Shown: in pieces, positions 18,758-45,096 of the stretch
Position numbering within the stretch: the stretch's first letter is position 1
Layout: every line of letters begins with the position of its first letter
Sequence record: NC_136442.1
Source of the DNA: a phage
Length of the DNA: 50,809 nt
Reading direction: 5' to 3' (one strand)
Made by a program: the position numbers and the translations under genes
The notes under the pieces: generated by a model
Told to the model about the DNA's origin: nothing
Seen by the model: only the letters and a program-made list of their open reading frames with translations
Database searches by the model: none

Positions 18758-18778
18758 ATAGCACTTTTTGCTAATGAC
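18758..18778 (+). promoter_or_regulatory. 20-nt family motif (variant ATAGCACTTTTTGCTAATGAC) directly abutting the tail fibre RBS on the opposite strand
   Basis: Motif read directly; lies between the primase terminator and the tail fibre start. Confidence 0.55.
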
Positions 18779-20363: not shown

Positions 20364-20395
20364 ATACTCCAAATGGCATTTTTTAAAGGTTTAAG

Positions 20396-22393: not shown

Positions 22394-22812
22394 TGGCTAT
22401 AACTGATAAAGGCGATTATCTTGAGTTTTACGAAAGGGATCCAACCGACACGAGAAGGGAAGTTAATCACCAGATAGATAGTTTTCAGTGGTTGACTTAT
22501 GCTCATCCTTATTTGCTGGCGTGGCATACGGTAAACGAGAATGAGAAGTCTAAAGCAACGGCGATGATTGATCAGCAGTCCGGCTTGGTTAAGGGAGTAA
22601 GCGATTTCATCATCCTGATTGGTTTAAACGGAAAATACCCCTTTGCAGCGATTGAGATCAAACGAGTGAATAAATCAGGCAAGGGGAAAGCATCACCAGT
22701 CAGCGATGAACAAAAGGCTTTTTTGCGTCGCGTTCGCAGCTTAGGAGGATTCGCTGCGGTAGCCTACGGATTCAATCAGTTTAAGTTGGCTATTGAATAC
22801 ATGCTTAAATAG
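22393..22812 (+). CDS. VRR-NUC domain nuclease
   Basis: GVSDF...IEIK PD-(D/E)XK-type motif in a roughly 140-aa protein after the helicase. Confidence 0.55.
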   Translation: MAITDKGDYLEFYERDPTDTRREVNHQIDSFQWLTYAHPYLLAWHTVNENEKSKATAMIDQQSGLVKGVSDFIILIGLNGKYPFAAIEIKRVNKSGKGKASPVSDEQKAFLRRVRSLGGFAAVAYGFNQFKLAIEYMLK

Positions 22813-22852
22813 CACTTTTTGTTAAAACTGGCGCGATGGATTGCGCCATAAT
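22809..22852 (+). promoter_or_regulatory. motif-type promoter cassette (motif, hairpin spacer, CATAAT) upstream of dam
   Basis: Consensus motif 22809-22828; inverted repeat GGCGCGATGGATTGCGCC in spacer; hexamer 22847-22852. Confidence 0.6.
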
Positions 22853-22892
22853 TCAATAACACGAGATGGCTTTTAATAGCGGAGAAATGAAA

Positions 22893-23622: not shown

Positions 23623-23880
23623 ATGAAAAAAGAGAGAAGCGTTTATTTAAATGAAACTGGCGAATGGTTGTTATTTCGCGCTATGGTGTGCGATGCACTT
23701 GATAAAAATCCTAACGTGAAAAAGATGATTGATTGCGATCCGTGGGAATTTTCAAGCGCATTAGATATGAGCTTTGAGGAGACAAAAAAACTCCCGCTTG
23801 AAAAATGGCACGAACAAATCAGAAATGACATGCAAGAGTTTGTCGATTCGTGGAATTTTCAGCACGGAATGATCCACTAA
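23623..23880 (+). CDS. hypothetical protein (85 aa)
   Basis: ORF with GGAG RBS; stop overlaps next motif. Confidence 0.55.
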   Translation: MKKERSVYLNETGEWLLFRAMVCDALDKNPNVKKMIDCDPWEFSSALDMSFEETKKLPLEKWHEQIRNDMQEFVDSWNFQHGMIH

Positions 23881-23923
23881 TAGCACTTTTTGTTAAAACG
23901 CCCGACCTAGTGTCGGGCATAAT
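23880..23923 (+). promoter_or_regulatory. motif-type promoter cassette (motif, hairpin GCCCGACCTAGTGTCGGGC, CATAAT)
   Basis: Read directly. Confidence 0.6.
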
Positions 23924-23955
23924 TATTTCAACGAAGCAAACATGAGGAAATAAAA

Positions 23956-24135
23956 ATGGTGGTATTCGATAAACGCGCTTTTAATCTTGCTCAAGAAGTA
24001 GCAAAAGGTTCAGTGGATGGCGGTTCAAAGGAAGGATTCCAGTTTGATTGGGAGATCGCAATGTTTTTACTGAAAGTTGCATACGGTCACGCACCAATTG
24101 AACAAGCGGAGGCATATTATAAGCATGAAGGTTGA
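23956..24135 (+). CDS. hypothetical protein (59 aa)
   Basis: ATG preceded by GAGGAAATAAAA; below the ORF-track size cutoff. Confidence 0.45.
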   Translation: MVVFDKRAFNLAQEVAKGSVDGGSKEGFQFDWEIAMFLLKVAYGHAPIEQAEAYYKHEG

Positions 24136-26840: not shown

Positions 26841-27060
26841 CGTCGGGCCACATATGAGTTTCGTTTGTTGGCTTGTTCGATTCGTCGTACTGCCTTACTT
26901 CAATGCTGCAAGTGTCGCCATACATTCCTGCAATCTTGCGCTCATTTTCAACAGCCGATTGCTCACTCCATCCAAAATCCCTGTCATAAATTGTCGGGAT
27001 TTCAGCAGAAGATCCGTTGTCATGATTATATACGCGAACTACTAAAAACTTGCTGGACAT
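26836..27060 (-). CDS. hypothetical protein (74 aa)
   Basis: ORF downstream of a motif cassette with conserved leader and RBS. Confidence 0.55.
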   Translation of the reverse strand: MSSKFLVVRVYNHDNGSSAEIPTIYDRDFGWSEQSAVENERKIAGMYGDTCSIEVRQYDESNKPTNETHMWPDA

Positions 27061-27096
27061 AATTTTACCTTTTGGTTGTTTCGTTTCGATGAAACA

Positions 27097-27140
27097 AATA
27101 TACCCGACACTAGGCCGGGCGTTTTAACAAAAAATGCTAT
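27097..27140 (-). promoter_or_regulatory. motif-type promoter cassette (ATAGCATTTTTTGTTAAAAC, hairpin spacer, TATATT)
   Basis: Read on minus strand; hairpin GCCCGGCCTAGTGTCGGGT nearly identical to the one at 23900. Confidence 0.6.
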
Positions 27141-27331
27141 TCCATACGCTTTACCGTAACCAGTAATACACCATCATCATTGCATAAAACATGTTCAGTG
27201 GTGCTAAAAGCGCGCATATCTGAATAAAGTAGCGTAAGTAAAGCATGAATAAAATCCTCATGTGATATTGAATTTACGGCGCAGTGCTTCAAGATCTTGT
27301 CTATTAGCTTTTGCCTGGAACAATTCATCAT
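27137..27331 (-). CDS. hypothetical protein (64 aa)
   Basis: AGGGGAG RBS 7 nt upstream; stop TAG embedded in motif as for many early genes; overlaps 3' end of the upstream ORF. Confidence 0.45.
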   Translation of the reverse strand: MMNCSRQKLIDKILKHCAVNSISHEDFIHALLTLLYSDMRAFSTTEHVLCNDDGVLLVTVKRME

Positions 27332-27653
27332 CGCCCATCTCCCCTATTCTCGCCATATCCCTGATCCAGTCGTTGCGCATACCATCCAGGCTATACAATT
27401 CGAATCCGAAAGGCCGCTTTGACGATCCTTTGGACCAGTATTTTCCGCAGACCCCATCTATATAACCAGCCGTCATCATTCTTGCGCAAAATTCCTTAGA
27501 TGCAAGGCTGGCGAACATTCGCGGCGTAAGTCCGGCGGCCCTTGCGAGCCGCTCACATTCTCTATGCTGATAGATAAATTTGGCTATGTGCTGCCTGTTA
27601 AACCAGTCGTATGACTCACACCATTTATACAGATCAAGCAAAAACATAATCAT
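27258..27653 (-). CDS. hypothetical protein (131 aa)
   Basis: ATGA start-stop coupling with upstream ATPase gene. Confidence 0.55.
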   Translation of the reverse strand: MIMFLLDLYKWCESYDWFNRQHIAKFIYQHRECERLARAAGLTPRMFASLASKEFCARMMTAGYIDGVCGKYWSKGSSKRPFGFELYSLDGMRNDWIRDMARIGEMGDDELFQAKANRQDLEALRRKFNIT

Positions 27654-29230
27654 CCCAGCAGTATTGGATTGACAAAAATAACACCATTAATAACACAAAC
27701 ATAATTTCTTTCTTCCAGCATTGGCAGCAAGTGCCCTTCTATCCTCTTCATTACGCCAGCTTGACCAACGAAAGGTTTTACCTTTCTCGCTGATTCGTAC
27801 AGGGCGCGAATATTCAGAATCCCTTTATTAGCCTTGCCGTGTCTAGTGATCAATTCAATCAATTTGCCCATTTCAGCATCATCACCAGCATAACCAGAAG
27901 CATTGGCGGCGCTAATGTATGTTTTGCTCAATTCCTGAAACATGATCAGCGCCTCTTGCATTGTTTCCACGTCGATCTCTTTCGACTTCTGCGGGTATCC
28001 GGCAGGATTAAACCAGTTGCGGATAACATGCAGGACGGAAGCAAGCCTGATCACCTGTTTATCCATTTTACCCAGCGCACCGCGTAACATTGTATGAGAA
28101 TACTTTCCGCCGTCTGCAAGATGCGGTTCCATATCCTGGCGAGCAATGTTGAGCACTCGCATAGCTGAACGGCTTATTTTCAGCGATATATTTGATTCGC
28201 TCATGATGTTATGCACCAATTGATAATATTGGGCCTTCAATTCAGGATCCACCGCCTCATAGGTAGAATCACCATTTTCATCAATGAATGAGCGACGGCC
28301 TAAGAATGATTCCTCACGGACCAACAAAAAGCGCTCACTCACACCGATACCGCGCGATCCAGCGTCCATGATTCCGCTTATCGTTTCATCCTGGGCTATA
28401 ACGCTCATACATCCAAGCGCGCGAAAACTCATGTTATTGTCAGCATTAGCACGGGCAATTGATACGTGACCATTATCCCACGCCTTAAGCACTAGCTCGC
28501 TGTTAGTCTTCCTTTCGCTATTGGCATAGGTCAAGCCTAACAGGCTGTTAATACTTGTTGCTTCGTCAGATATTACGGCAAAGTTACCTTGCTTGTTGTT
28601 GATTTTCGCCAAGCCTTCTGGAGTGGTATCTGAAACAGGGAAAGTTATATCACACATCTTTTCCAGCTTCTCCTCCAGATCCTCTTTTTCCTGGTATAGA
28701 GATTCCATATCAGCGCCTGATCTTTCGCTTTTCATCTCCTTTGCAAGACCTGCCAACTTTGCCTGTATTTTCTTTCTTTCCTTGCGGCGTTGCTCGTTGA
28801 TCTTCTCAACTTCCGCAATCATCGGAGCAATAGCCATACTGTTGATCGCAGATTTACCAGTTGACGGCGGCTGGCTTGTAACGACGTAAAGCGCAGTCGG
28901 CTGATCGGTTCCGTGATAGTCAACTGTAAAGCGTCCAAGCATAGCGGCAGAAATGCAGCCGATAAAGTGCATGTAAGCCGATGATTCAGGGAATTGAACT
29001 GATCGCGCAATGCTGCGTGATAACTTGCCGACAACATCAATATCATTACCAAGAGAAATAACGGGGTAGCGATCGTGACCGCTATTTACATCCTTCACGT
29101 CGCCCCAAAAGCTGGACGACTGGCGATAGCCGTTAGCCTGAATTGATACGCGAACTGGTGAAAGGTTCTGGCTTTCAGCCATAGCGATTATTTGCTGTGG
29201 AGTTAATTTGTTCGTTTCTAATGAAAACAT
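27650..29230 (-). CDS. P-loop NTPase, putative replication helicase/primase-associated ATPase (DUF3987-like)
   Basis: Walker A-like SQPPSTGKS, 526 aa, AAGGAG RBS. Confidence 0.55.
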   Translation of the reverse strand: MFSLETNKLTPQQIIAMAESQNLSPVRVSIQANGYRQSSSFWGDVKDVNSGHDRYPVISLGNDIDVVGKLSRSIARSVQFPESSAYMHFIGCISAAMLGRFTVDYHGTDQPTALYVVTSQPPSTGKSAINSMAIAPMIAEVEKINEQRRKERKKIQAKLAGLAKEMKSERSGADMESLYQEKEDLEEKLEKMCDITFPVSDTTPEGLAKINNKQGNFAVISDEATSINSLLGLTYANSERKTNSELVLKAWDNGHVSIARANADNNMSFRALGCMSVIAQDETISGIMDAGSRGIGVSERFLLVREESFLGRRSFIDENGDSTYEAVDPELKAQYYQLVHNIMSESNISLKISRSAMRVLNIARQDMEPHLADGGKYSHTMLRGALGKMDKQVIRLASVLHVIRNWFNPAGYPQKSKEIDVETMQEALIMFQELSKTYISAANASGYAGDDAEMGKLIELITRHGKANKGILNIRALYESARKVKPFVGQAGVMKRIEGHLLPMLEERNYVCVINGVIFVNPILLG

Positions 29231-29258
29231 TCGTTAGCTTCTCCTTTGTGGGCCGTAA

Positions 29259-29302
29259 ATTTTAACGGCCCAATACTACCCCGTTTTGTCAAAAAGTGCT
29301 AT
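29259..29302 (-). promoter_or_regulatory. motif-type promoter cassette (variant ATAGCACTTTTTGACAAAAC, 18 nt, TAAAAT)
   Basis: Read on minus strand. Confidence 0.6.
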
Positions 29303-29520
29303 TTGATCCGCTCTATTGCAACCAGAAGTCGATCAGGCTGGCGGTCGCTGTAGCATTCTCCTGTAATCCCATCCTTAAACGTAAAGTAAAGCGCCTTATG
29401 ATATGAAAAACCAATCAGCCAACCTACCGCCGTTTTTTTGATGGGCCTGACTATATCGCCAGGCTTGAAAGTCTTTGTGGTAGAATGCGTTACTTTGTAA
29501 CGGTTTTCACTGTTTATCAC
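29299..29520 (-). CDS. hypothetical protein (73 aa, GTG start)
   Basis: GTGA overlap with upstream stop; GAGGGT RBS. Confidence 0.45.
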   Translation of the reverse strand: MINSENRYKVTHSTTKTFKPGDIVRPIKKTAVGWLIGFSYHKALYFTFKDGITGECYSDRQPDRLLVAIERIK

Positions 29521-29903
29521 AGATATTTACCCTCAAAAAGATAACAGCCGCCAGCAGAGAATCCGACCTCTTCACGGTACAGGTTCCAGCGATCGCCGCA
29601 CTCATCAAAAACATAACCCGCAACGCTTCCAAGCGGTCGCCCTTTCTCGATCTGGTATCGCTTGCCCTGCTTAAAGTGCTTTTTGCACGGCATGTTATGA
29701 TCTACAAACGTGCAAAGAACGGTTTTTGTGTTAATGGCGCGGTAATCATCTCGGTTTGCTGGAAGCCAGCGGCTACCCTTAACAAGCGTCTTAACCTGGA
29801 ACTCTTCCACCTCGATCACATCATCACTTCCTGCAATCTTCTGATAAACCGTTTTAAAACGGCCTTTCATCAATACGTTGGTTTCATTACAGACAACATT
29901 CAT
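29517..29903 (-). CDS. hypothetical protein (128 aa, Cys/His-containing)
   Basis: AAGGAG RBS; first gene after motif cassette. Confidence 0.6.
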   Translation of the reverse strand: MNVVCNETNVLMKGRFKTVYQKIAGSDDVIEVEEFQVKTLVKGSRWLPANRDDYRAINTKTVLCTFVDHNMPCKKHFKQGKRYQIEKGRPLGSVAGYVFDECGDRWNLYREEVGFSAGGCYLFEGKYL

Positions 29904-29932
29904 GATCAGATCTCCTTTGTTTGTTCGATGTG

Positions 29933-29976
29933 ATTATGCCAGGTTTTTACACCTGGCTTTTAACAAAAAGTGCTAT
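29933..29976 (-). promoter_or_regulatory. motif-type promoter cassette (motif, hairpin CCAGGTGTAAAAACCTGG, CATAAT)
   Basis: Read on minus strand. Confidence 0.6.
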
Positions 29977-31737: not shown

Positions 31738-31934
31738 TAAATGATCTCCATGTATGTTTCAAAGCCATTTAACTTGAACAGGCCGTTTTCACATTTGCGC
31801 ACGTTCCAAGTTAGCCCTGAGTGGTACGCCTCCATATCATCAAGGTCAATGGTGATTTCAGCACCTTTCTTAAACAAACCTTTTTCGTGAGACTTGTCGC
31901 GCTTAACAACTTTAACATCAACCTGATTTTCCAT
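31737..31934 (-). CDS. hypothetical protein (65 aa)
   Basis: Start MENQVDV follows cassette leader ...CATCGACAACAAGCGAGGATTTAAAG. Confidence 0.55.
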   Translation of the reverse strand: MENQVDVKVVKRDKSHEKGLFKKGAEITIDLDDMEAYHSGLTWNVRKCENGLFKLNGFETYMEII

Positions 31935-31965
31935 CTTTAAATCCTCGCTTGTTGTCGATGGGTGT

Positions 31966-32009
31966 AATATACCATTCAGGCGCACATCGTTTTTAACAAA
32001 AAGTGCTAT
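31966..32009 (-). promoter_or_regulatory. motif-type promoter cassette (motif with extra A, TATATT)
   Basis: Read on minus strand. Confidence 0.6.
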
Positions 32010-32296: not shown

Positions 32297-32471
32297 AGTC
32301 AACAACTCCAAACTCGTTAACGATTTGCGCCTTGTAGAATCCGCCATTTTTCGCAAGGTTGTAGCAAGCGGCTACGGTTTCAAATTCGCGCGCTTCCGGC
32401 TGGCTGTTTTCGTGTTCCCAGGTAATCAGAGTAACCATTTTCAAATCCTCGCATTCGTTGTCGATGCGTGT

Positions 32472-32515
32472 AATGTACAGGAATACGAGGATTGAGTTTT
32501 AACAAAAAGTGCTAT
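32472..32515 (-). promoter_or_regulatory. motif-type promoter cassette (consensus motif, 18 nt, TACATT)
   Basis: Read on minus strand; leader ACACGCATCGACAACGAA. Confidence 0.6.
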
Positions 32516-33469: not shown

Positions 33470-33741
33470 TACTTCTTGATCTCCTCACTGATAAATTTCA
33501 GCACCTGACGCAAGAAAACCTCGTTGTTGATAGTCGCTGGCAATTCTTCTTTCACTTCTTGCGGCAGATAGATATTGCCGTGCCAGGTCAAGCAATCGTA
33601 GTTGATACGATAAGAGCAAAGCCACTCGCAATCGTTATCTGCTTCCCAAATGCAGAGTTGCAGAACATCGCCAAAATCTTCAACAGTCAGATCCAGACCG
33701 TGACGCTTAGCGAAATTGAAAGTGGTTTTGCTGATGTTCAT
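33469..33741 (-). CDS. hypothetical protein (90 aa), first gene of the leftward early block
   Basis: Follows motif cassette; AGGAGA RBS. Confidence 0.6.
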   Translation of the reverse strand: MNISKTTFNFAKRHGLDLTVEDFGDVLQLCIWEADNDCEWLCSYRINYDCLTWHGNIYLPQEVKEELPATINNEVFLRQVLKFISEEIKK

Positions 33742-33775
33742 TGCTATCTCCTGAGCGGTTCGTTTCGATGTGTGT

Positions 33776-33819
33776 AATGTACCCGATCAGGTGGCCTGAG
33801 TTTTAACAAAAAGTGCTAT
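33776..33819 (-). promoter_or_regulatory. motif-type promoter cassette (consensus motif, 18 nt, TACATT)
   Basis: Read on minus strand; leader ACACACATCGAAACGAAC. Confidence 0.6.
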
Positions 33820-34415: not shown

Positions 34416-34880
34416 ATGAGCGAGCAATCATTCACTGACACGCTGCGCCGTGCAGCTATTATGCTGGCTAATGGCGAGGAAGAGACGATTAAGATTCCTG
34501 ACGCGTATTTGCAGGTCCACATGTTCGGCAAGAAGTCGGCAAGCAATCCGGCGGCCTACATTCGCCAGATCATGAGTCGAGTGCCAGAAGTCGCCGAGCG
34601 GGGGCGCGTATCCGTTACCCGTGGCGTTTACGGGCCGGAAGATGAAAACTTCGGTAGCACTTTCTACGAGGTGCGCATTGTTGAAGGCCGTCGCAAGGTT
34701 TACAACAAAGAGGCACTGGAAAGGGCAGTACGCCAGGCTAAGCGCAAAGTTGCAGAGGCGATCATTGATATGTCACCCAACCTGGCAAACTATGCGCCGG
34801 AAGAGTATGAAACATTATCAAAGGCCGTCGCTGACTTTCACGCGATGATCAAAAAAACTTTCCTGGAGGATGAGCAATGA
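34416..34880 (+). CDS. hypothetical protein (154 aa), first rightward early gene
   Basis: AGGAGG RBS 6 nt upstream; immediately downstream of the consensus promoter. Confidence 0.65.
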   Translation: MSEQSFTDTLRRAAIMLANGEEETIKIPDAYLQVHMFGKKSASNPAAYIRQIMSRVPEVAERGRVSVTRGVYGPEDENFGSTFYEVRIVEGRRKVYNKEALERAVRQAKRKVAEAIIDMSPNLANYAPEEYETLSKAVADFHAMIKKTFLEDEQ

Positions 34881-35137
34881 AAAAGGCGTTAATCGGTGTT
34901 TTGGTGGCAATGACACTCCTGACCGGATGCGAAAAGGCATCAGAATCAACGGTTGTCGTAGGCGTGGAGTCAGATTTCAAAGTCGGCCGCCTGTTCACTG
35001 TTGACGGATGCACAGCATACAGATTCTATGATAACGGTCGCGCGATCTATTACACCAATTGCAAAGGCGCAACGGATAGCACGTACAACAGCGGAAAGAA
35101 CGTAATGCACCAGCAAGTCACAACAGATATTAAATAG
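34877..35137 (+). CDS. lipoprotein (86 aa)
   Basis: Signal MKKALIGVLVAMTLLTGC with lipobox; ATGA overlap with upstream gene. Confidence 0.6.
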   Translation: MKKALIGVLVAMTLLTGCEKASESTVVVGVESDFKVGRLFTVDGCTAYRFYDNGRAIYYTNCKGATDSTYNSGKNVMHQQVTTDIK

Positions 35138-35177
35138 CACTTTTTGTTAAAACGCCAGGCGCAAAGCCTGGCATAAT
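35134..35177 (+). promoter_or_regulatory. motif-type promoter cassette (consensus motif, hairpin GCCAGGCGCAAAGCCTGGC, CATAAT)
   Basis: Read directly; leader AGCCTCATCGAAACGAGA then GAGGAA RBS. Confidence 0.65.
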
Positions 35178-35209
35178 AGCCTCATCGAAACGAGATTGAG
35201 GAAACAAAA

Positions 35210-35395
35210 ATGGCACGTCGCATCACCAAAGACCTTAAAGTTCTTAACAAAGAAAACGTAGTTAAAATCCTGGTTATCTGGGGCTACAACGAAGAAACAG
35301 CAAAGCAGAAGGTAGAGGCAGGTTATGACCTGGCTGTAAAAGCAATGCCAAACGACGACGCCAAAGGCATTGCAAACTATGTAGCTTTCTTTTAA
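35210..35395 (+). CDS. hypothetical protein (61 aa)
   Basis: ORF after cassette with RBS. Confidence 0.55.
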   Translation: MARRITKDLKVLNKENVVKILVIWGYNEETAKQKVEAGYDLAVKAMPNDDAKGIANYVAFF

Positions 35396-35596: not shown

Positions 35597-35640
35597 ATAG
35601 CACTTTTTGTTAAAACTCAAAAACGACAACCAGGCATAAT
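35597..35640 (+). promoter_or_regulatory. motif-type promoter cassette (consensus motif, 18 nt, CATAAT)
   Basis: Read directly; leader contains hairpin GGGGCGGCACGGCGTCGCCC. Confidence 0.6.
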
Positions 35641-35695
35641 AAATCACATGGGGCGGCACGGCGTCGCCCAGTAAAACCAATCAGGAGAAAGCATC

Positions 35696-36586
35696 ATGTT
35701 AAAACTTACTGACATTAAATTCCCGATCACCTTCGAATCTCGCGGCGTTGGTCATTTCATGTTTACCGACGAGAAGACATGCACTAAGTTTAACGAATAC
35801 GGAAGTCCAAACGCTTCAACAATGGAGATTGAACACTTCATTGAAGCGCACAATAAACACTACAACTCACTCAGAGACTACGGTTACGCAATGCCAGGCT
35901 ACACCTGTTTCCACTACAAGCCATATAAAGGCCAGGTGTTGCCAGTGCGCTCACCGGAACGCGCAGAGATTCCGATGGTCGAGATGAAAACCTGCGACTA
36001 TAAAAAATTGTGGTGCTTAAGTGTGGACAATATCAAGTATCCGATCACGTTCCGCTCCGCTGGTAATTCAACGATTCGCTACACATCGCGCGACAATGGC
36101 GTTTATAGCAGTGGTCAGAAATCAGAGCTTAAGGTGGATTTCTTTGTTAATGGTCATAATAAATACAATCCGCACAATGAAAAAGATAAGATTTACTATG
36201 TGGAAGACATTACAAAACACTTGTTTGGAGAAACTCCATTCGGCGGCGGAAAGACGTCAATTCAAAAAATAATTGGCGAGGAGATCCACAAAGCGGCTGC
36301 CGAAATGAAAGCGCCTGGAGGCTGGCGTATTGATAAGAGCGCCTTTGCAAATCAAGAAATCGTAACGCAGGGCGCGATTGAAGATATGCCAGTTGCAGCC
36401 ACGCTAAAAGGAGTCCGGCTTGATGATGGTGTGTGGTTTGAATTAACGGCTACACCAAAGACGATCGAGATTCATGATGATGTTGTTATCCTCCTGCTTC
36501 ACTACGGCGGCACTAAAAATCGGACTGTTGCAGGTGAGATCAGCATCAAGCGCGGAACGACGGTTAAGTGGAAGGTAAAGATTTGA
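35696..36586 (+). CDS. hypothetical protein (296 aa) with internal tandem duplication
   Basis: Segments DIKFPITFESRGVGH and NIKYPITFRSAGNST repeated within the protein; AGGAGA RBS. Confidence 0.65.
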   Translation: MLKLTDIKFPITFESRGVGHFMFTDEKTCTKFNEYGSPNASTMEIEHFIEAHNKHYNSLRDYGYAMPGYTCFHYKPYKGQVLPVRSPERAEIPMVEMKTCDYKKLWCLSVDNIKYPITFRSAGNSTIRYTSRDNGVYSSGQKSELKVDFFVNGHNKYNPHNEKDKIYYVEDITKHLFGETPFGGGKTSIQKIIGEEIHKAAAEMKAPGGWRIDKSAFANQEIVTQGAIEDMPVAATLKGVRLDDGVWFELTATPKTIEIHDDVVILLLHYGGTKNRTVAGEISIKRGTTVKWKVKI

Positions 36587-36662: not shown

Positions 36663-36815
36663 ATGGCTACCTGGATTTTGCTGATTCTTATGATTGATGG
36701 CGGCGTTGACCATATCGAAATGAATAGCCAGCAATCTTGCATTGAGGCACGAGAGCAGATCAAGAACAACAACAGGTTTTATGCGTACACTCACACGCTA
36801 TGTATTAAGAAATAG
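36663..36815 (+). CDS. hypothetical small hydrophobic protein (50 aa)
   Basis: GAGGTGAGAG RBS; stop TAG lies inside next motif; below ORF-track cutoff. Confidence 0.45.
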   Translation: MATWILLILMIDGGVDHIEMNSQQSCIEAREQIKNNNRFYAYTHTLCIKK

Positions 36816-36854
36816 CACTTTTTGTTAAAACTCAAATGTGGGGCCAGGTATAAT
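36812..36854 (+). promoter_or_regulatory. motif-type promoter cassette (consensus motif, TATAAT inside hairpin GGCCAGG...GGCC)
   Basis: Read directly. Confidence 0.6.
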
Positions 36855-36884
36855 GGCCTCACTTTCAACGAAGGAGATAAAACG

Positions 36885-37115
36885 ATGTACATTAAAAAGA
36901 AGATGAAATGCGTTTCCGTTAACTATGCTTGCTCTGGCATGTTCAAGCCTGGCGAAATCTATACGGCGCAAAAACTGAAATCATCAACCGGATCTTTTTA
37001 CGTGAGCAATAGTAAGGGGCATCGCATGTTCCTGAACGGCGGCGAAGGCACTAAGGTTATGGCACACGCTATGGTAATGGCTGAATTTGAGGAAGTGAAA
37101 GATGAAAACAAATAA
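36885..37115 (+). CDS. hypothetical protein (76 aa)
   Basis: AAGGAGA RBS before ATG 36885. Confidence 0.55.
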   Translation: MYIKKKMKCVSVNYACSGMFKPGEIYTAQKLKSSTGSFYVSNSKGHRMFLNGGEGTKVMAHAMVMAEFEEVKDENK

Positions 37116-37334: not shown

Positions 37335-38045
37335 ATGAAAAAATACACTTTCGAACTGTGGGGCAAGAAGTACGAATTTACGACAAGCAAGCCGATTGTT
37401 ATCGTTGACCTAGACGGCACACTATCGGACGGATCGCATCGTTTGCATTTGCTGCCAACTGAAAACTTGCACCTTACGGAATCGTGGCGCGAGTTTAACA
37501 GGGCCGCCGCCGGAGATTCACCTATTAAAAGCACTATCGCGGTTATTAACGGTTTATGGGTGTCGGGATTTGCCATCGTCATCTTGACCGGACGCAGCGA
37601 CGAGGTTCGCTATGAAACCTGCAAATGGTTGAATGAGAACGGCGTGAAGTTTGACGAAATCATCATGCGCCGCCATGAGGACAACCGAAAGGATACGGTT
37701 ATTAAAGAAGAAGCCTTGCGCGCTATTGGCCTGGACAACATTGTTTGCGCCTTTGACGATTCGCCGAACGTGGTTAAGCACTTCCGCAGCTTGGGGATCA
37801 CAACCTATCAGGTCACGGAATACGACAAGCCACACGCTCACATACAATCTCACGGCGTGGAATCAATCAAGATAACGAAGCGCGCCCGATTCGTTGGCAG
37901 CAAAGATAGCCTTGTCAATGCCAGCTTTACCAGAGGAATAGCCTATGACGTTGTTTCTTATCATGACAAGAGTTTTATAGTTCATGATGATTCTGGATGC
38001 GCCTGGTCATTCAATCATAGTGACGGCGATTTTGTTAATGCGTAA
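37335..38045 (+). CDS. HAD-superfamily phosphatase (nucleotidase or polynucleotide 3-phosphatase-like)
   Basis: Motif I VIVDLDGTLSDG (DxDGT) near the N-terminus; ATG at 37335 chosen over TTG at 37320. Confidence 0.55.
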   Translation: MKKYTFELWGKKYEFTTSKPIVIVDLDGTLSDGSHRLHLLPTENLHLTESWREFNRAAAGDSPIKSTIAVINGLWVSGFAIVILTGRSDEVRYETCKWLNENGVKFDEIIMRRHEDNRKDTVIKEEALRAIGLDNIVCAFDDSPNVVKHFRSLGITTYQVTEYDKPHAHIQSHGVESIKITKRARFVGSKDSLVNASFTRGIAYDVVSYHDKSFIVHDDSGCAWSFNHSDGDFVNA

Positions 38046-38088
38046 TAGCACTTTTTGTTAAAACATCTCAACGGGCTTGCGGTATAGT
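38045..38088 (+). promoter_or_regulatory. motif-type promoter cassette (consensus motif, 18 nt, TATAGT within hairpin GGGCTT...AAGCCC)
   Basis: Read directly; leader CATCAACAACAAACGAGGA. Confidence 0.6.
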
Positions 38089-38119
38089 AAGCCCATCAAC
38101 AACAAACGAGGATTAAATC

Positions 38120-38383
38120 ATGGCTAACAAGATCGAATTTTTCAAAGCGGTAGACATTATTGATGGCGCGCCTAGCTTCTTTGCGAACCATTCTATTGAC
38201 GGCAAGGATATTGGGTACAACGTTATCCGTCGAGATGGAATATCAAAACTTAGTGACCTGGTAGGCCATATTGTGTCAATCGGGAAATGCGCATGGCCCG
38301 ATTCGCCACGAGAGCCGCGCCGCCGCGACATGATTAATCCTGAATTGCTTTACACGCTGGTAGTAGAGGGAGAAAATAAATGA
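38120..38383 (+). CDS. hypothetical protein (87 aa)
   Basis: GAGGA RBS. Confidence 0.55.
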   Translation: MANKIEFFKAVDIIDGAPSFFANHSIDGKDIGYNVIRRDGISKLSDLVGHIVSIGKCAWPDSPREPRRRDMINPELLYTLVVEGENK

Positions 38384-38968: not shown

Positions 38969-39559
38969 ATGAAGCGAGACATTATTATCCTTAATGGGCC
39001 ACCTGGTTGTGGAAAGGACACTATTGCAGCTTACCTAACGGGCCATCGTTACCCAGCGGTTAAGGCGTCATTCAAACAGCCGATGTTCGATATTGCGTTT
39101 TCCATGCTGGGCGTGTACCGATACGATGAATTTATGGACCTGTACAACGACCGAGAACAAAAAGAAAAGCCTCAAGTTATCTTAGGCGGCAAGTCACCTC
39201 GACAATTCATGATCTGGATTAGCGAGGATGTAATGAAGCCAGTTTTTGGGGATCACTATTTCGGGCGTCGAATGGTTGAAGAGATTCACGAGATGTACCG
39301 AGATTTGGCGGTTGTGATCAGTGATGGCGGATTCCCCGAAGAAATCAAGCCGCTGGTTAAGGCGGGGCATGAGGTGCATATTTGCCGATTGCATCGCGAC
39401 GGCTTCACGTTTGCTGGCGATTCGAGAGACTACATTGACCTGAGCGGTTATCACTATCGAATCCATCACTATGATTTCCACTTGCAGGACGGTAAGCCGG
39501 AACTGGCTGTAAACGAGATCGTCAATGCTGTCAAATGGAAGCACACACAGATTAAATAG
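38969..39559 (+). CDS. P-loop nucleotide kinase (dNMP kinase-like)
   Basis: Walker A NGPPGCGKDT near the N-terminus; GGGGAGAATAATC RBS. Confidence 0.6.
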   Translation: MKRDIIILNGPPGCGKDTIAAYLTGHRYPAVKASFKQPMFDIAFSMLGVYRYDEFMDLYNDREQKEKPQVILGGKSPRQFMIWISEDVMKPVFGDHYFGRRMVEEIHEMYRDLAVVISDGGFPEEIKPLVKAGHEVHICRLHRDGFTFAGDSRDYIDLSGYHYRIHHYDFHLQDGKPELAVNEIVNAVKWKHTQIK

Positions 39560-39599
39560 CACGAATTGCTAAACGCGGGGTTATCGGCCCCGCTATAAT
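39556..39599 (+). promoter_or_regulatory. motif-type promoter cassette (variant ATAGCACGAATTGCTAAAC, hairpin CGGGGTTATCGGCCCCG, TATAAT)
   Basis: Read directly. Confidence 0.55.
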
Positions 39600-39629
39600 G
39601 CTCACATCAACAAGCAAGAGGAAATCACA

Positions 39630-40010
39630 ATGGTTAACATTCGAAAAATCCGCGTCGGCACTAAATTCTTAGTTACTTACGCAATTCCAGATAGCGGAAT
39701 GAAGAAGGGCCAGATTGTTAAGGTTGATAGCAAAAGGTTCGGAATCCCTGGTATCAATGGATATCTAATCAATAGAGATCTTGGATTCGACGGCTTCGCT
39801 ATCCGTGCGCTTGAGGGCATTGTTGCAACTCTTAAACGAATCACTAATCATCGCGGCTGCCCAATCAAGACGATTAAAGCGCCAGTAAATTACGGCAAAC
39901 TGGATAATCGTCGAATCCGCCGCCTGGCGCGTAACGCGTTAAAATTCCGTGGCGTAGGCGATGATTTCTACTATGGATACAAGAGGATTGCGCGCAATGC
40001 TGGGAAATAA
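39630..40010 (+). CDS. hypothetical protein (126 aa)
   Basis: AGAGGAAA RBS. Confidence 0.6.
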   Translation: MVNIRKIRVGTKFLVTYAIPDSGMKKGQIVKVDSKRFGIPGINGYLINRDLGFDGFAIRALEGIVATLKRITNHRGCPIKTIKAPVNYGKLDNRRIRRLARNALKFRGVGDDFYYGYKRIARNAGK

Positions 40011-40558: not shown

Positions 40559-40849
40559 ATGGCAAACAAAACTTACCGCAAACTACTGGTTAACGCTTTT
40601 GAAAATATCGCGCAGTGTAACAAGTGGAACGACTCTAAACACTCGCCAATCACAATGAAGCGCGCCGGATTCAAAAATGCTCGTTCATGGGCGCGAGCTT
40701 TCGCAGCTTGCTATATGCCGGATGGTGGACTAGGAGCGATGAACGAGTTTTTGATCAACATGATAGAGGAAGCTGCGCGAGATGATCGACCGCTGACACA
40801 GCGAGATTTTGATGATTTCGCGCGCGATGAGCTTTACTATCTGAGCTAA
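40559..40849 (+). CDS. hypothetical protein (96 aa)
   Basis: ORF ends at TAA adjacent to next motif. Confidence 0.55.
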   Translation: MANKTYRKLLVNAFENIAQCNKWNDSKHSPITMKRAGFKNARSWARAFAACYMPDGGLGAMNEFLINMIEEAARDDRPLTQRDFDDFARDELYYLS

Positions 40850-40892
40850 TAGCACTTTTTGTTAAAACTTCCGCAAGGGCATTTGGTAAAGT
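40849..40892 (+). promoter_or_regulatory. motif-type promoter cassette (consensus motif, 18 nt, TAAAGT within hairpin AGGGCA...TGCCCT)
   Basis: Read directly. Confidence 0.6.
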
Positions 40893-40924
40893 GCCCTTAT
40901 TGAAGCGAAACAGAGGAAAGCGCA

Positions 40925-41137
40925 ATGAAAATCAAAATCACCAAAATCGACACTATCAACGGCGACGGATCAATCACTCTTGAGCAATGCGGTTTGGTTG
41001 TTGGTGATGTGCTGGAAGTTGACGGACATTTCAGCGACGGATCTTATTGTGTTATTGCGCCGCGTAACAGCGAGTTTATCAAGGCTGGCGACAATATTAG
41101 TGTTAACCATGACGAATGCGAGGTAGTAGAAGAATGA
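40925..41137 (+). CDS. hypothetical protein (70 aa)
   Basis: AGAGGAAAG RBS. Confidence 0.55.
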   Translation: MKIKITKIDTINGDGSITLEQCGLVVGDVLEVDGHFSDGSYCVIAPRNSEFIKAGDNISVNHDECEVVEE

Positions 41138-43502: not shown

Positions 43503-45070
43503 TGATCATATGGGAAGATTTGACGGCGGCGCAAAAGCGAGCCATTAAAGAAATCAGCGAGCATTCATTCGAAAAGATGATCAGAATCTGGTTCCAATTG
43601 TTGCAGGGGCAAAAATTCCAGAGCAACTGGCATTTTAGCTTATTGTGCAGTGAGGTAGAGAAGATCATCAATGGAGAGTCGCAGAATGTGATTTTCAACA
43701 TTACGCCAGGTAGCGGTAAGACTGAGATTTTCTCGATCCACATGTCACCATACGCGTCATTGAAAAGCCGGAAGGTGAGAAACCTTAACCTTTCGTTTAG
43801 TGATGGCCTTGTCCAGCAAAACAGCAACCGGATAAAGGAGATTATTGGTTCTCCTGAGTGGCAAGAGCTATGGCCTGGAAAACTGGCAAAGGCGAGCGCT
43901 AAAGATCTGATAGTCACCGAAGGCGGCAAGGTTAAATTGCAAGTTAACTCACGTTCTATTGGCGGCCAGGTAACAGGTTTGCGTGGCGGCTATATGGACG
44001 ATGGTTTTACTGGTATGCTGGTTCTTGACGATCCAGACAAGCCGGATGATATGCTTTCTAAGGTAAAGCGCGAGGCTATTCACATGCGGTTAAAAAACAC
44101 AGTGCGATCGCGTCGAATGAAAGACACCACGCCAATTGTTATGGTGCAACAGCGACTACACGTTAATGATTCCACCTGGTTCATGCTTAATGGCGGGATG
44201 GGTGGTATTGAGTTTAAAGTCGTGAGCATTCCGGCGCTGGTTACGAAAGAATACCGCGAAACGCTTCCTGATTGGTTGAAGCCTGAATTTGATCGTGATG
44301 TGCTGTCAAGTAAGCCAGTGATGATAGATGGCGTCGCTCATTATTCATTTTGGCCTGCGAAGGAAAGCGCTGAGGAGTTGCTTGCATTGCGCAATGCAGA
44401 TCCTTACACGTTCTCCAGCCAATACCAACAGCAACCAATCGCGCTTGGCGGGAACGTGTTTAAAACAGAGTGGTTCCAGTATTACGGCAGCGGCGAAAAG
44501 TGCGCACTACCAAAACCGGATCGCTTTGAATACACATTTATTACTGGAGATACCGCGCAGAAGGCCGGAGAGCTTAACGACTATTCGGTTTTTTGTTATT
44601 GGGGGATGTATAAGAATCGCGTTTACTTCATTGATGGCATTCGCGGAAAGTGGGAAGCGCCGGATCTTGAATTAAATTTTATTGCCTTCGTTAACCAGTG
44701 CTGGAAGCGCAATAAGGAGTGTGGCAGCTTGCGACGTATCCACATTGAGGATAAGGCCAGCGGCACGGGTTTGATTCAGGGGGCCAAAAAGAAGATCCCG
44801 ATTGATATAAATCCCGTTCAGCGAAGCAATGACAAGGTGACGCGAGCAATGGACGCCGCGCCAGTAATGAGGGCCGGACGTGTGGCGCTGCCAGAAAATC
44901 ACCCAATGCTGCCTGAGATACTGGCAGAGGTTGCAGCATTCACTTTTGATGATTCTCATCCCCATGATGATATTGTCGATAATATAGTTGATGCTGTTAA
45001 CGTCGAAATGAACTTGGCAGATGATCCGGTGGCAAGGATGAAAAAGCTGGCTGGTCTACGCAATAAATAG
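43502..45070 (+). CDS. terL: terminase large subunit
   Basis: ATPase-type motifs (PGSGKT Walker A-like, VLDDPD Walker B-like) and C-terminal acidic nuclease-type region; 522 aa. Confidence 0.8.
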   Translation: MIIWEDLTAAQKRAIKEISEHSFEKMIRIWFQLLQGQKFQSNWHFSLLCSEVEKIINGESQNVIFNITPGSGKTEIFSIHMSPYASLKSRKVRNLNLSFSDGLVQQNSNRIKEIIGSPEWQELWPGKLAKASAKDLIVTEGGKVKLQVNSRSIGGQVTGLRGGYMDDGFTGMLVLDDPDKPDDMLSKVKREAIHMRLKNTVRSRRMKDTTPIVMVQQRLHVNDSTWFMLNGGMGGIEFKVVSIPALVTKEYRETLPDWLKPEFDRDVLSSKPVMIDGVAHYSFWPAKESAEELLALRNADPYTFSSQYQQQPIALGGNVFKTEWFQYYGSGEKCALPKPDRFEYTFITGDTAQKAGELNDYSVFCYWGMYKNRVYFIDGIRGKWEAPDLELNFIAFVNQCWKRNKECGSLRRIHIEDKASGTGLIQGAKKKIPIDINPVQRSNDKVTRAMDAAPVMRAGRVALPENHPMLPEILAEVAAFTFDDSHPHDDIVDNIVDAVNVEMNLADDPVARMKKLAGLRNK

Positions 45071-45096
45071 CACTAATTGCTAAAAAGTTATATAAT
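45067..45096 (+). promoter_or_regulatory. motif variant (ATAGCACTAATTGCTAAAAAG) with TATAAT upstream of portal
   Basis: Read directly; hexamer lies 3 nt upstream of a terminator hairpin. Confidence 0.5.

What the first reader, a model, noticed from the sequence alone, without database searches (positions are those of the whole stretch)
35134..35209. Stereotyped promoter-like cassette repeated about 20 times: 20-nt motif, 18-nt spacer, -10-like hexamer, CATCGAAAC-like leader, RBS
The 20-mer ATAGCACTTTTTGTTAAAAC or a close variant occurs in gene-directed orientation at 20320, 22809, 23880, 35134, 35597, 36812, 38045, 39556, 40849 and 45067 on the + strand, and at 13606, 27140, 29302, 29976, 32009, 32515 and 33819 on the - strand. 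In nearly every copy the motif is followed, after 18 +/- 1 nt, by a -10-like hexamer (CATAAT, TATAGT, TAAAAT, TACATT, TATTAT), then a leader often containing CATCGAAAC / CATCGACAAC / CATCAACAAC, then a GAGGA-type RBS and ATG. The stop codon of the preceding gene is frequently embedded in the motif (TAA-ATAG or ATAG). The position where a -35 would sit reads TAAAAC or TTAAAA, a poor match to TTGACA. That suggests recognition of the upstream motif by something other than sigma70 region 4, for example a phage-encoded activator in the manner of T4 MotA-dependent middle promoters. The spacer usually contains an inverted repeat whose sequence differs between copies while pairing is kept, and in some copies the hairpin encloses the -10 instead. 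This points to selection on structure as well as sequence. Whether this element has been described for relatives cannot be judged without a literature or database check.
Basis: partly seen in the sequence, partly recalled or inferred. Interest (0 to 1): 0.85.

Follow-up and report, generated by a model that had tools for sequence, protein, structure and literature searches.

The report
Phage promoters built on host marboxes
The repeated 20-base motif in this T1-like phage is, base for base and in exact position, the binding site ("marbox") of the host's MarA/SoxS/Rob stress and antibiotic-resistance activators, so the phage probably drives its early and middle genes through those host proteins.

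Summary
The window is a T1-like (Drexlerviridae) phage genome with 20 copies of ATAGCAC-N3-TTG-Y-TAAAAC. Sixteen copies head a stereotyped cassette: motif, 18 nt, TAtaaT-type -10, C-1/A+1, AUCGAAAC leader, SD, ATG at about +76. The same cassette occurs 14-20 times in T1, TLS, a Braunvirinae phage, a Webervirus and a Pantoea phage.

The repeat itself is already published for TLS (2024; also noted there for T1, Rtp and Rogue1), with function left open.

My reading is new to the literature I could search. The motif is a consensus marbox. It matches GCAnnWWnTGnnAAA exactly. It scores like the best E. coli MarA ChIP-seq sites, and nine copies are identical to validated sites. It has the same orientation and the same 18-bp gap to the -10 as the E. 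coli class II micF promoter.

No MarA-like protein is encoded by the phage. The most likely mechanism is therefore class II activation of sigma70 RNA polymerase by host Rob, MarA or SoxS (RamA in Klebsiella). A MotA-like phage activator is less likely. No binding, transcript 5' end or activator dependence was tested.

About 60% of cassettes carry a selected hairpin upstream of the predicted start site. Its role is unresolved.

The parts
35134..35212 (+). Reference cassette. Marbox-like 20-mer 35134-35153. Spacer hairpin GCCAGGC-gcaaa-GCCTGGC 35154-35172. -10 CATAAT 35172-35177. Predicted start A at 35184. Leader AUCGAAACGAG.., SD GAGGA, ATG 35210 (61-aa gene). Upstream stop TAG = motif positions 2-4.
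13530..13606 (-). Cassette. Motif GTAGCACTTTTTGCTAAACG, 17-nt gap, TATAGT, ATG 13532 (89-aa gene; product begins MKKLIAVIATVA, my reading as a signal-peptide/lipoprotein-like N-terminus, not tested).
20320..20398 (+). Cassette. ATAGCATTTTTTGTTAAAAC, 18 nt, TATTAT, ATG 20396 (665-aa helicase). It lies in the divergent region shared with the Cro-like HTH gene 19832..20308(-).
22809..22889 (+). Cassette with spacer hairpin (type A). CATAAT, ATG 22887 (Dam-methylase homologue). Upstream stop TAG lies in the motif.
23880..23958 (+). Cassette with spacer hairpin gcccgac-ctagt-gtcgggc. CATAAT, ATG 23956.
27058..27140 (-). Cassette with spacer hairpin. TATATT, leader CATCGAAACGAAAC, ATG 27060.
29228..29302 (-). 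Cassette. Variant motif ATAGCACTTTTTGACAAAAC. The hairpin encloses TAAAAT. ATG 29230 (526-aa helicase).
29901..29976 (-). Cassette with spacer hairpin. CATAAT, ATG 29903 (128-aa protein conserved across the family, predicted all-beta).
31932..32009 (-). Cassette. TATATT, leader CATCGACAAC, ATG 31934.
32436..32515 (-). Cassette. TACATT, leader CATCGACAACGAA, ATG 32438.
33739..33819 (-). First leftward cassette at the divergent region. TACATT, CATCGAAACGAA, ATG 33741.
35597..35698 (+). Cassette with a longer leader. CATAAT at 18 nt, ATG 35696 (296 aa).
36812..36887 (+). Cassette with a 17-nt gap and TATAAT. The hairpin GGGGCC../..GGCCTC encloses the -10. ATG 36885.
38045..38122 (+). Cassette. 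The hairpin GGGCTT..AAGCCC encloses TATAGT. Leader CATCAACAACAAACGAGGA, ATG 38120.
39556..39632 (+). Cassette with the GAA variant ATAGCACGAATTGCTAAACG. TATAAT, ATG 39630.
40849..40927 (+). Cassette with a type B hairpin AAGGGCATTTGG-TAAAGTGCCCTT enclosing the -10. ATG 40925.
2895..2981 (-). Antisense copy in the tail-gene region. Motif 2962-2981, TAGATT at 18 nt, then a hairpin with a U-rich tail. It could give a short (~45 nt) antisense RNA. Conserved in T1 at 18850(-).
18758..18777 (+). Motif copy without a -10 at 18 nt. It lies between the primase terminator and the tail-fibre RBS, and is inverted relative to those genes. Conserved in T1 at 34902 and Braunvirinae at 34789.
45067..45086 (+). 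Motif copy between the large terminase and portal genes. Its 15-bp core is identical to the E. coli yneO MarA site. There is no -10 at 18 nt, and a terminator follows.
49894..49913 (-). Antisense motif copy between head genes with a weak -10 (TATTCA). Conserved in T1 at 15086(-) and TLS at 15042(-); Pantoea phage AAS23 has an antisense copy at 5969(-) in what looks like the equivalent gap between head genes.

Best explanation
Each cassette is a sigma70 promoter of the class II activator-dependent type. Its activator site is a consensus marbox, the 20-bp asymmetric site read by the monomeric AraC-family activators MarA, SoxS and Rob (RamA in Klebsiella).

Proposed mechanism:
1. A host activator binds GCAC (A site, -47..-44) and TAAA (B site, -36..-33) in the forward orientation, overlapping and replacing the -35 hexamer.
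2. As in the solved micF complexes, the activator contacts the alpha-CTD and sigma70 region 4 and so recruits RNA polymerase.
3. Sigma region 2 reads the TAtaaT -10, helped by G at -14.
4. Transcription starts at the conserved A seven nt downstream. The result is a short unstructured AUCGAAAC leader, an SD and the gene.

Sixteen such units drive the early, replication and recombination genes of this phage. Structural genes lack them.

Shown here: sequence identity to marboxes, orientation, register, enrichment, conservation across the family, and absence of a recognisable phage MarA homologue.

Inferred: actual binding, which activator acts (Rob is the constitutive candidate), the start site, and dependence in vivo.

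The hairpins lie upstream of the predicted start. They can act only on read-through RNA or on DNA. My best guess, with low confidence, is that they insulate modules by partial termination or by stabilising the 3' end of the upstream message.
For: 1. The published marbox search pattern GCAnnWWnTGnnAAA (PMC12052159) matches 21 times in the window against 1.43 expected. The phage's only degenerate positions are W or Y exactly where the marbox consensus is W or n.
2. A PWM built only from the 33 E. coli MarA ChIP-seq sites (PMC5684230 Table 1) scores all 93 phage copies above the median E. coli site (11.6 bits). Phage medians are 17.7-17.9 bits, which is the range of the top five E. coli sites. 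Nine copies have cores identical to the validated yneO, pheP, ybjC and ypeC sites.
3. The geometry matches micF. The micF promoter read from MG1655 is ACAGCACTGAATGTCAAAAC + 18 nt + TAGAAT. The phage has a 20-mer + 18 nt + -10 in 75 of 93 copies. In the Rob-RNAP-micF structure, Rob contacts -47G and -45A (PMC9178005). The phage logo has G-47, C-46, A-45, C-44. The micF soxbox is centred at -41.5, in forward orientation, overlapping a non-optimal -35 (PMC9638938; PMC12052159).
4. The cassette is conserved in Tunavirinae, Tempevirinae, Braunvirinae, Webervirus and Sauletekiovirus. By BLAST, multi-copy records (several matching places per genome) are from Enterobacterales hosts; the Vibrio ICP1 and Streptococcus rows shown were single short matches.
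5. There is no phage MarA-like protein.
6. Two complete cassettes sit in the unrelated T4-like Klebsiella phage BL02, next to genes with no Drexlerviridae homologue. The Cro-like regulator was seen only in ~45-51-kb genomes in the sample of hits listed.
7. Standard sigma70 scans miss these promoters. This fits the TLS authors' report of only three sigma70-like promoters.
Against: - No binding, start-site or genetic data were available.
- Rob is reported to be largely sequestered in unstressed cells, and MarA and SoxS are scarce without inducers (PMC2787020; PMC5684230). Heavy reliance on them is risky for a phage I understand to be fast-growing (own knowledge, not checked here).
- The near-consensus -10 with G-14 might give enough activity alone.
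- Positions 1-3 (ATA) and 11 (T) are more conserved than the marbox consensus requires. A second reader of the site is therefore possible.
- Two conserved phage proteins could bind DNA: the Cro-like protein 19832..20308 and the probable winged-helix protein 27258..27653.
- Four conserved copies lack a -10 and sit in front of late genes. That suggests an additional, non-promoter role.
- The BL02 cassettes may be recent transfers and prove nothing about function.
Confidence: 0.6

Rival explanations
1. A phage-encoded DNA-binding protein reads the motif and activates or times these promoters. Candidates are the family-wide Cro-like HTH protein (19832..20308) and the probable winged-helix protein (27258..27653). 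On this view the resemblance to the marbox is mimicry or coincidence.
For: - Both proteins are conserved in all six Drexlerviridae genomes compared.
- The Cro-like gene sits beside a cassette in a divergent control region.
- The motif contains a TAGCA-N5-TGYTA inverted repeat that would suit a dimer.
- ATA at positions 1-3 is conserved beyond marbox needs.
Against: - The GCA/TGC pseudo-symmetry is part of E. coli marboxes themselves.
- The flanks are direct (AAA on both sides), not symmetric.
- The motif is invariant, while the putative recognition helix of the Cro-like protein varies between genera.
- Full cassettes persist in a Slopekvirus, and no ~175-kb Slopekvirus genome appeared among the 25 of 849 hits listed for the Cro-like regulator, so its absence there is inferred from a sample and not shown.
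- A match of this quality in both sequence and register to a host site is very unlikely by chance.
- No MotA or AsiA domain was found in the 20 ORFs scanned.
Confidence: 0.2
2. The promoters need no activator. RNA polymerase alone uses the near-consensus -10 with G-14, and the A/T-rich conserved block acts as an unusual UP or -35 substitute (the TLS authors' 'UP element' idea).
For: - The -10 is strong and G-14 is frequent.
- TTGNTA at motif positions 11-16 resembles TTGACA, and one copy reads TTGACA.
- T and A tracts are present.
Against: - TTGNTA lies 22 bp from the -10, which is outside sigma70 tolerance as I know it (own knowledge).
- The hexamers at 17-19 bp are poor (TAAAAC, TTAAAA).
- The invariant G-47, C-46, C-44 and G-38 are not features of UP elements, and the block sits 8-9 bp downstream of the UP register (UP consensus from own knowledge).
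- The consensus scan does not call these promoters.
Confidence: 0.1
3. The element acts mainly as something other than a promoter. Options are a roadblock ('stoperator'-like), a decoy that titrates MarA/SoxS/Rob, or an RNA-level 3'-end or processing signal made of the motif plus the hairpin.
For: - Four conserved copies lack a -10 and precede late genes or lie antisense.
- Stop codons are embedded in the motif.
- Hairpins are under selection.
- The T1 record annotates three of these hairpins as rho-independent terminators.
Against: - The rigid 18-bp link to a -10, the conserved C-1/A+1 and the constant distance to the SD and ATG are promoter properties.
- About 40% of cassettes have no stable hairpin.
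- None of the hairpins in 33000-41500 meets simple terminator criteria. Type A tails carry only 2-6 T in 8 nt.
Confidence: 0.1

Closest known systems
E. coli class II MarA/SoxS/Rob promoters (archetype micF; also lpxC P2, lpxL P1, rfaY P1)
   Same: - A 20-bp asymmetric marbox with a GCAC A site and a (C/T)AAA B site.
- Forward orientation, overlapping a poor -35.
- An 18-bp gap to a sigma70 -10, with the box centred near -41.
   Different: - These are in a virulent phage genome, with 16-20 near-identical, near-optimal copies per 50 kb.
- They are coupled to a conserved AUCGAAAC leader, a frequent G-14 and, often, a hairpin nested between the box and the start site.
- Activator binding and dependence are untested.
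21-nt direct repeat of phage TLS (German, Kropinski, Misra et al., PHAGE 2024, PMC11447400)
   Same: It is the same element: aaATAGCACnnnTTGnTAAAA, co-directional with genes, about 76 nt upstream of start codons. The authors also note it in T1, Rtp and Rogue1.
   Different: That paper leaves the function open (stoperator, enhancer site or UP element). It does not link the repeat to a fixed -10, to a start site or to the marbox.
T4 MotA/AsiA-dependent middle promoters
   Same: A conserved box replaces the -35 hexamer upstream of a TAnnnT -10. Many copies serve one temporal class of phage genes.
   Different: - The MotA box (TGCTTtA) is centred at -30, 12 +/- 1 bp from the -10 (own knowledge). 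Here the site is 20 bp, centred near -40.5, and has a different sequence.
- No MotA or AsiA domain was found.
Host-regulator sites in phage genomes, for example CtrA boxes in Alphaproteobacteria phages (PMC9437464)
   Same: A phage places binding sites for a host global regulator in front of its own genes. This title surfaced.
   Different: A different regulator and host clade. I did not read that paper beyond its title and abstract.
Mycobacteriophage L5 stoperators
   Same: Many copies of an asymmetric site, in one orientation relative to transcription, in short intergenic gaps. The analogy was raised by the TLS authors.
   Different: Stoperators are bound by the phage repressor of a temperate phage and silence transcription (own knowledge). 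Here there is a fixed -10 partner, and no gene annotated as a repressor or integrase appeared in the T1, TLS, Skenny or AAS23 feature tables; that T1-like phages are virulent is from the literature.

Membership tests
Class II marbox (MarA/SoxS/Rob) promoter | Asymmetric ~20-bp site matching the marbox (GCAnnWWnTGnnAAA; A site GCAC, B site YAAA) | tested here: met
   There are 21 exact matches in the window against 1.43 expected. All 93 copies score above the median validated E. coli site with a ChIP-derived PWM, and nine have cores identical to validated sites.
Class II marbox (MarA/SoxS/Rob) promoter | Forward orientation (A site distal, B site proximal), overlapping the -35 position, box centre between -36 and -55 | tested here: met
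   GCAC is upstream and TAAA is next to the spacer in all cassettes. The box spans -50..-31 if the start is 7 nt after the -10. The definition comes from PMC12052159.
Class II marbox (MarA/SoxS/Rob) promoter | Same register to the -10 as a structurally characterised class II promoter | tested here: met
   micF has box + 18 nt + TAGAAT. The phage has 18 nt in 75 of 93 copies. Rob contacts -47G and -45A, which matches the phage G-47 and A-45. For fumC I could not place the -10 unambiguously.
Class II marbox (MarA/SoxS/Rob) promoter | Sigma70-type -10 with a non-optimal -35 hexamer | tested here: met
   The -10 logo is TAtaaT. Hexamers at 17-19 bp read TAAAAC or TTAAAA. The generic scan misses the promoters.
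Class II marbox (MarA/SoxS/Rob) promoter | Binding by MarA, SoxS or Rob, and activator-dependent transcription | not testable with these tools
   This needs EMSA or footprinting, in vitro transcription, and rob/marA/soxS mutants.
TLS/T1 direct repeat (PMC11447400) | aaATAGCACnnnTTGnTAAAA, co-directional with genes, about 76 nt upstream of start codons, ~20 copies | tested here: met
T4 MotA-dependent middle promoter | MotA box centred at -30, about 12 bp from the -10, with MotA and AsiA encoded by the phage | tested here: not met
   The site has a different sequence and is centred near -40.5. No such domains were found in 20 ORFs. The MotA box definition is from own knowledge.
UP element | A/T-only tracts at -59..-38 read by the alpha-CTD, upstream of a functional -35 | tested here: not met
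   G and C are invariant at -47, -46, -44 and -38. The block runs to -31, and no usable -35 follows. The UP consensus is from own knowledge.
Intrinsic (rho-independent) terminator, for the hairpins | G+C-rich stem-loop immediately followed by a U tract | tested here: not met
   None of the cassette hairpins in 33000-41500 is called. Type A tails carry 2-6 T in 8 nt, and type B hairpins are followed by AUCGAAAC. A few copies (27140; T1 41956) come close. T1 annotators called three of them terminators.
Structured element under selection, for the hairpins | Stability beyond composition, and compensatory changes | tested here: met
   Over 81 cassettes the mean z is -2.5, and 59% have z below -2. 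In 18 type B copies, 6 of 8 pairs change on both sides, and 0 of 500 shuffles reach the score. That set was chosen because it folds this way, so the percentage paired is biased.

The most novel reading that the evidence does not exclude
A whole family of virulent enterobacterial phages (Drexlerviridae) has no conventional early promoters. Instead it runs its early and middle programme from 15-20 optimal class II marboxes, borrowing the host's MarA/SoxS/Rob (RamA) antibiotic- and oxidative-stress activators. Phage gene expression, and hence susceptibility, would then be coupled to the mar/sox/rob state of the cell: bile salts, salicylate, redox stress, and clinical marR or ramR multidrug-resistance mutations. 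The amplifying phage DNA would also titrate those regulators. The marbox copies without a -10 in front of late genes could form part of a copy-number timer.
Probability: 0.4. Interest if true: 0.85.

Novelty: new member of a known kind. Interest (0 to 1): 0.68.

Why it matters
- It would explain a standing oddity: T1-like genomes appear to have almost no sigma70 promoters. The TLS re-annotation found three and left the 21-nt repeat unexplained.
- It gives a precise and cheap set of experiments.
- It predicts a direct link between the mar/sox/rob multidrug-resistance regulon and permissiveness to a very common group of E. coli, Klebsiella, Salmonella and Shigella phages, many of which are used or proposed for therapy. 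Constitutive MarA or RamA mutants might express these phages better. Loss of rob might blunt them. Inducers such as bile salts or salicylate might modulate infection.
- It provides about 90 natural variants of a compact, portable promoter cassette. These could be used to dissect class II marbox activation.

Tried and rejected
1. An IMG/VR scan with ATAGCACNNNNTTGNTAAAA used one N too many. It returned only 73 single chance hits and is uninformative.
2. Literature searches for the motif string, for Drexlerviridae promoters or transcriptomes, and for marbox/MarA/SoxS together with T1-like phages found only the TLS paper. The T1 (2004) and Rtp (2006) genome papers are not held, so earlier remarks there cannot be excluded.
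3. Resemblances I considered by eye and rejected on spacing or key bases: sigma54 (TGGCAC-N5-TTGC), sigma32, FliA, IHF, Fis and CRP.
4. TTGNTA as the -35 was rejected because the spacer would be 22 bp.
5. The dimeric-operator reading of TAGCA-N5-TGYTA was dropped. The same pseudo-symmetry is present in E. coli marboxes, and the flanks are not symmetric.
6. A phage MarA-like protein was looked for and not found:
   - Pfam on 20 ORFs.
   - tblastn with MarA, SoxS and the Rob N-terminal domain against five phage genomes, best E = 0.26.
   - AlphaFold of the two universal unknown proteins gave an all-beta fold and a winged-helix-like fold.
   - DUF7174 (34416..34880) is not universal.
7. The hairpins as canonical terminators are not supported by the simple scan.
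8. Co-transfer of the BL02 cassettes with Drexlerviridae genes is not supported. The flanking proteins have no hits.
9. The fumC, inaA and sodA promoter regions were fetched to widen the geometry test. Only fumC gave a clear marbox, and its -10 could not be placed with confidence.
Full report
**What the window is.** Region 33000-41000 is 95-98% identical to Escherichia phages NorthRox, MikeNSara, vB_EcoS-95, tonnikala and relatives. These are T1-like siphoviruses of the family Drexlerviridae. The window behaves as a complete ~50.8-kb genome of that type.

- The 20-mer ATAGCACTTTTTGTTAAAAC occurs 16 times with up to 3 mismatches, against 0.01 expected.
- With the family consensus ATAGCAC-N3-TTG-N-TAAAAC there are 20 copies, against ~0.85 in shuffles.
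Three more copies exist: 2981-, 18758+ and 49913-.
- I collected 93 copies from the window, T1, TLS, a Braunvirinae phage (vB_EcoS-2006V) and a Webervirus (Skenny). In 75 of them a TAnnnT-type hexamer lies exactly 18 nt after the motif. In 83 it lies at 17-19 nt, against 11.0 +/- 3.0 expected.
- The position-specific logo of 73 copies reads: aA-ATAGCAC-(T/G)WW-TTG-Y-TAAAAc at -52..-31, an uninformative spacer, G at -14 (58/73), TAtaaT at -12..-7, C at -1, A at +1 (62/73), then TCGAAAC.
- In the window, 16 copies are followed by an SD and an ATG at motif start +72 to +80 (one at +99). In 14 copies the stop codon of the preceding gene lies in or against the motif.

So the description of a stereotyped promoter-like cassette is accurate. 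The caveats are that four copies are not gene-directed cassettes and that 45067 lacks the -10.

**Is it already known?** Partly. The 2024 re-annotation of phage TLS (PMC11447400) reports a 21-nt direct repeat, aaATAGCACnnnTTGnTAAAA. It occurs at 21 sites, in the direction of transcription, about 76 bases upstream of start codons. The authors also saw it in T1, Rtp and Rogue1. They found only three sigma70-like promoters. They left the repeat's function open and suggested stoperator-like sites, enhancer-binding sites or UP elements. They did not connect it with a fixed -10. The T1 GenBank record annotates several of the spacer hairpins as rho-independent terminators.

**What the motif is.** The logo fits the binding site of the E. 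coli MarA/SoxS/Rob activators (the marbox) at every specified position.
- *Pattern match.* The search pattern used by the Grainger laboratory, GCAnnWWnTGnnAAA (PMC12052159), matches 21 times in the window against 1.43 expected. The phage motif varies only where that pattern has W or n. Positions 9-10 are T or A only, and position 14 is C or T only.
- *Known sub-sites.* The A site GCAC and the B site (C/T)AAA described in the Rob and SoxS cryo-EM papers (PMC9178005; PMC9638938) are the most conserved blocks of the phage motif.
- *Independent PWM.* A weight matrix built only from the 33 MarA ChIP-seq sites of Sharma et al. 2017 (PMC5684230 Table 1) scores all 93 phage copies above the median E. 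coli site (11.6 bits, leave-one-out). Phage medians are 17.7-17.9 bits, the range of the five best E. coli sites.
- *Identical cores.* Nine phage copies have 15-bp cores identical to the validated yneO, pheP, ybjC or ypeC sites. The window copy at 45067 equals yneO.
- *The mar operon's own marbox.* Read from MG1655, it is ATGCCACGTTTTGCTAAATC in forward orientation. It differs from the Webervirus copy ATAGCACGTTTTGCTAAAAC at three positions.
- *From memory, not verified here.* The motif also fits the 20-bp consensus of Martin et al. 1999 (AYnGCACnnWnnRYYAAAYn) at 19 of 20 positions, the same score as micF and mar themselves.

**Geometry.**
- Marbox promoters fall into classes. In class II the box is in forward orientation and overlaps the -35 hexamer. 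For micF, the soxbox is centred at -41.5.
- I read the micF promoter from MG1655: ACAGCACTGAATGTCAAAAC, 18 nt, TAGAAT. The phage cassette has the same 20-bp frame, the same orientation and the same 18-nt gap.
- In the Rob-RNA polymerase-micF structure, Rob hydrogen-bonds -47G and -45A of the A site and occludes sigma70 region 4 from the -35 element. In the phage logo the A site is G-47, C-46, A-45, C-44.
- This coincidence of sequence, orientation and register is the core of my interpretation.

**Host factor or phage factor?**
- Pfam scans of 20 early and middle ORFs found no AraC-type domain. The gene 19832..20308 is a weak Cro/YdaS-like HTH.
- tblastn with MarA, SoxS and the Rob N-terminal domain against five phage genomes gave nothing better than E = 0.26.
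- Few non-structural proteins are conserved in all six Drexlerviridae genomes compared. The small early genes, including DUF7174 at 34416..34880, are not.
- Two universal proteins of unknown function were modelled. 29517..29903 is all-beta (pLDDT 88). 27258..27653 is helical with a beta-hairpin and resembles winged-helix regulators only weakly. Neither looks like MarA.
- The motif is essentially invariant from Escherichia to Klebsiella to Pantoea phages. The putative recognition helix of the Cro-like protein varies.
- Two complete cassettes, with hairpin and CATCGAAAC leader, lie side by side in the T4-like Klebsiella phage BL02 (Slopekvirus). They sit in front of genes with no Drexlerviridae homologue. 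One has the 18-nt gap. The other has 28 nt with a true terminator inserted. The Cro-like regulator appeared only in ~45-51-kb genomes among the 25 of 849 hits that were listed.
- These points favour a host activator. They do not prove it. The BL02 cassettes could be recent imports.

**Which host activator?** This is inference. Rob is constitutive but reported as largely sequestered. MarA and SoxS need induction. That is the main biological objection to the hypothesis. Possible answers are that optimal sites capture the free pool, that the strong -10 with G-14 gives a basal level which the activators boost, or that infection itself mobilises them. None of these is tested.

**Hairpins.**
- I folded -30..+2 of 81 cassettes. 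The mean z-score against shuffles is -2.5, and 59% have z below -2.
- There are two recurrent forms. Type A (20 copies) fills the spacer from -30 to about -12. Type B (18 copies) pairs -24..-17 with -8..-1 and encloses the -10.
- Cassettes at the same position in different genera (for example upstream of dam) keep a hairpin with different stem sequences.
- In the type B set, 6 of 8 pairs show changes on both sides. That set was selected for folding this way, so the percentage paired is biased.
- All arms lie upstream of the predicted start. The hairpin is therefore absent from transcripts made by its own promoter.
- The hairpins are not canonical terminators. None is called in 33000-41500, and type A tails carry 2-6 T in 8 nt.
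- About 40% of cassettes lack a stable hairpin, so it is not needed for promoter function.
- My best guess, with low confidence, is that the hairpin insulates successive co-directional modules. It could act as a weak terminator or pause site, or as a 3'-end stabiliser for the upstream message. This is in line with the 'transcripton' idea cited for T1.

**Leader.** The conserved C-1/A+1 and AUCGAAAC(GA) follow the -10 in most cassettes and in the BL02 copies. I have no test of its role. It could favour initiation and escape, or give an unstructured translation leader. The T7 A1 transcript also begins AUCGA (own knowledge).

**Copies without a promoter partner.** Four positions are conserved between genera.
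- An antisense copy lies after the major tail gene (2981-). It has TAGATT at 18 nt and a hairpin with a U-rich tail ~30 nt later, and may give a short antisense RNA.
- An antisense copy lies between head genes (49913-).
- A copy lies between a terminator and the tail-fibre RBS, inverted relative to that gene (18758+).
- A copy lies in front of a packaging or portal gene (45067+; in T1 directly in front of terS).

These suggest a second use of the same site, such as repression, a roadblock or titration. I could not test this.

**Verdict.**
- The repeat is already in the literature, but without a mechanism.
- The best-supported mechanism is class II marbox activation by host MarA/SoxS/Rob-type proteins, not a MotA-like phage factor.
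- I found no paper that makes this link. The search covers open-access papers only.
- I file it as a new member of a known kind, with confidence about 0.6 in the host-activator mechanism and about 0.85 that the cassettes are promoters at all.

Noticed in passing
window 34359-34387 (+): A near-consensus sigma70 promoter, TTGACA-17-GATAAT (11 of 12), lies directly upstream of the DUF7174 gene (ATG 34416). It is the only strong canonical promoter in 33000-41500 and is a likely activator-independent immediate-early promoter.
   Followed up: partly
window 33820-34358: A ~540-bp AT-rich non-coding region lies between the divergent leftward and rightward cassette arrays. It carries repeated GATAACAA/TTGTTATC and TATCTATAT motifs and several inverted repeats. 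It may be an origin, a pac region or a control region.
   Followed up: partly
window 2895-2981 (-); T1 (L001) 18850 (-): A complete marbox plus -10 unit points antisense between the major tail gene and the tail chaperone gene. It is followed after ~30 nt by a hairpin with a U-rich tail, so it could make a ~45-nt antisense RNA. It is conserved in T1.
   Followed up: partly
window 18758-18777 (+), 45067-45086 (+), 49894-49913 (-): These marbox copies have no properly spaced -10. Their positions are conserved in front of or between late genes in T1, TLS, Braunvirinae and AAS23. They may be repressive, roadblock or titration sites.
   Followed up: partly
L084 (Klebsiella phage BL02, Slopekvirus) 10086 (-) and 10440 (-); L076: Two adjacent Drexlerviridae-type cassettes lie in a T4-like phage, upstream of small genes with no Drexlerviridae homologues. 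One has a bona fide terminator inserted between marbox and -10, giving a 28-nt gap. BLAST suggests 3-5 such places per Slopekvirus genome.
   Followed up: partly
window 27258-27653 (-): A 131-aa protein conserved in all six Drexlerviridae genomes, annotated 'YdbL' in some records. It is predicted (pLDDT 86.5) to have helices plus a beta-hairpin. It resembles winged-helix regulators only weakly. It lies just downstream of the helicase gene.
   Followed up: partly
window 29517-29903 (-): A 128-aa family-wide protein of unknown function, the first gene after the 29976 cassette. It is predicted with confidence (pLDDT 88) to be all-beta. No fold search was run.
   Followed up: partly
window 31737-31985 (-): This ORF matches Pfam PF25180, 'Phage antiviral trigger protein Gp54' (E = 3.6e-38).
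   Followed up: no
window 32436-32515 (-): In this cassette a 10-nt segment of the spacer (cctcgtattc) is complementary to the SD region of the downstream gene (gaatgcgagg). In read-through RNA, but not in promoter-initiated RNA, the SD could be sequestered.
   Followed up: no
phage collection hits: About 20 GenBank records named 'Campylobacter phage' (for example A120, E6), with host given as C. jejuni, are T1-like genomes that carry the cassette and the Cro-like regulator. The host assignment looks doubtful.
   Followed up: no
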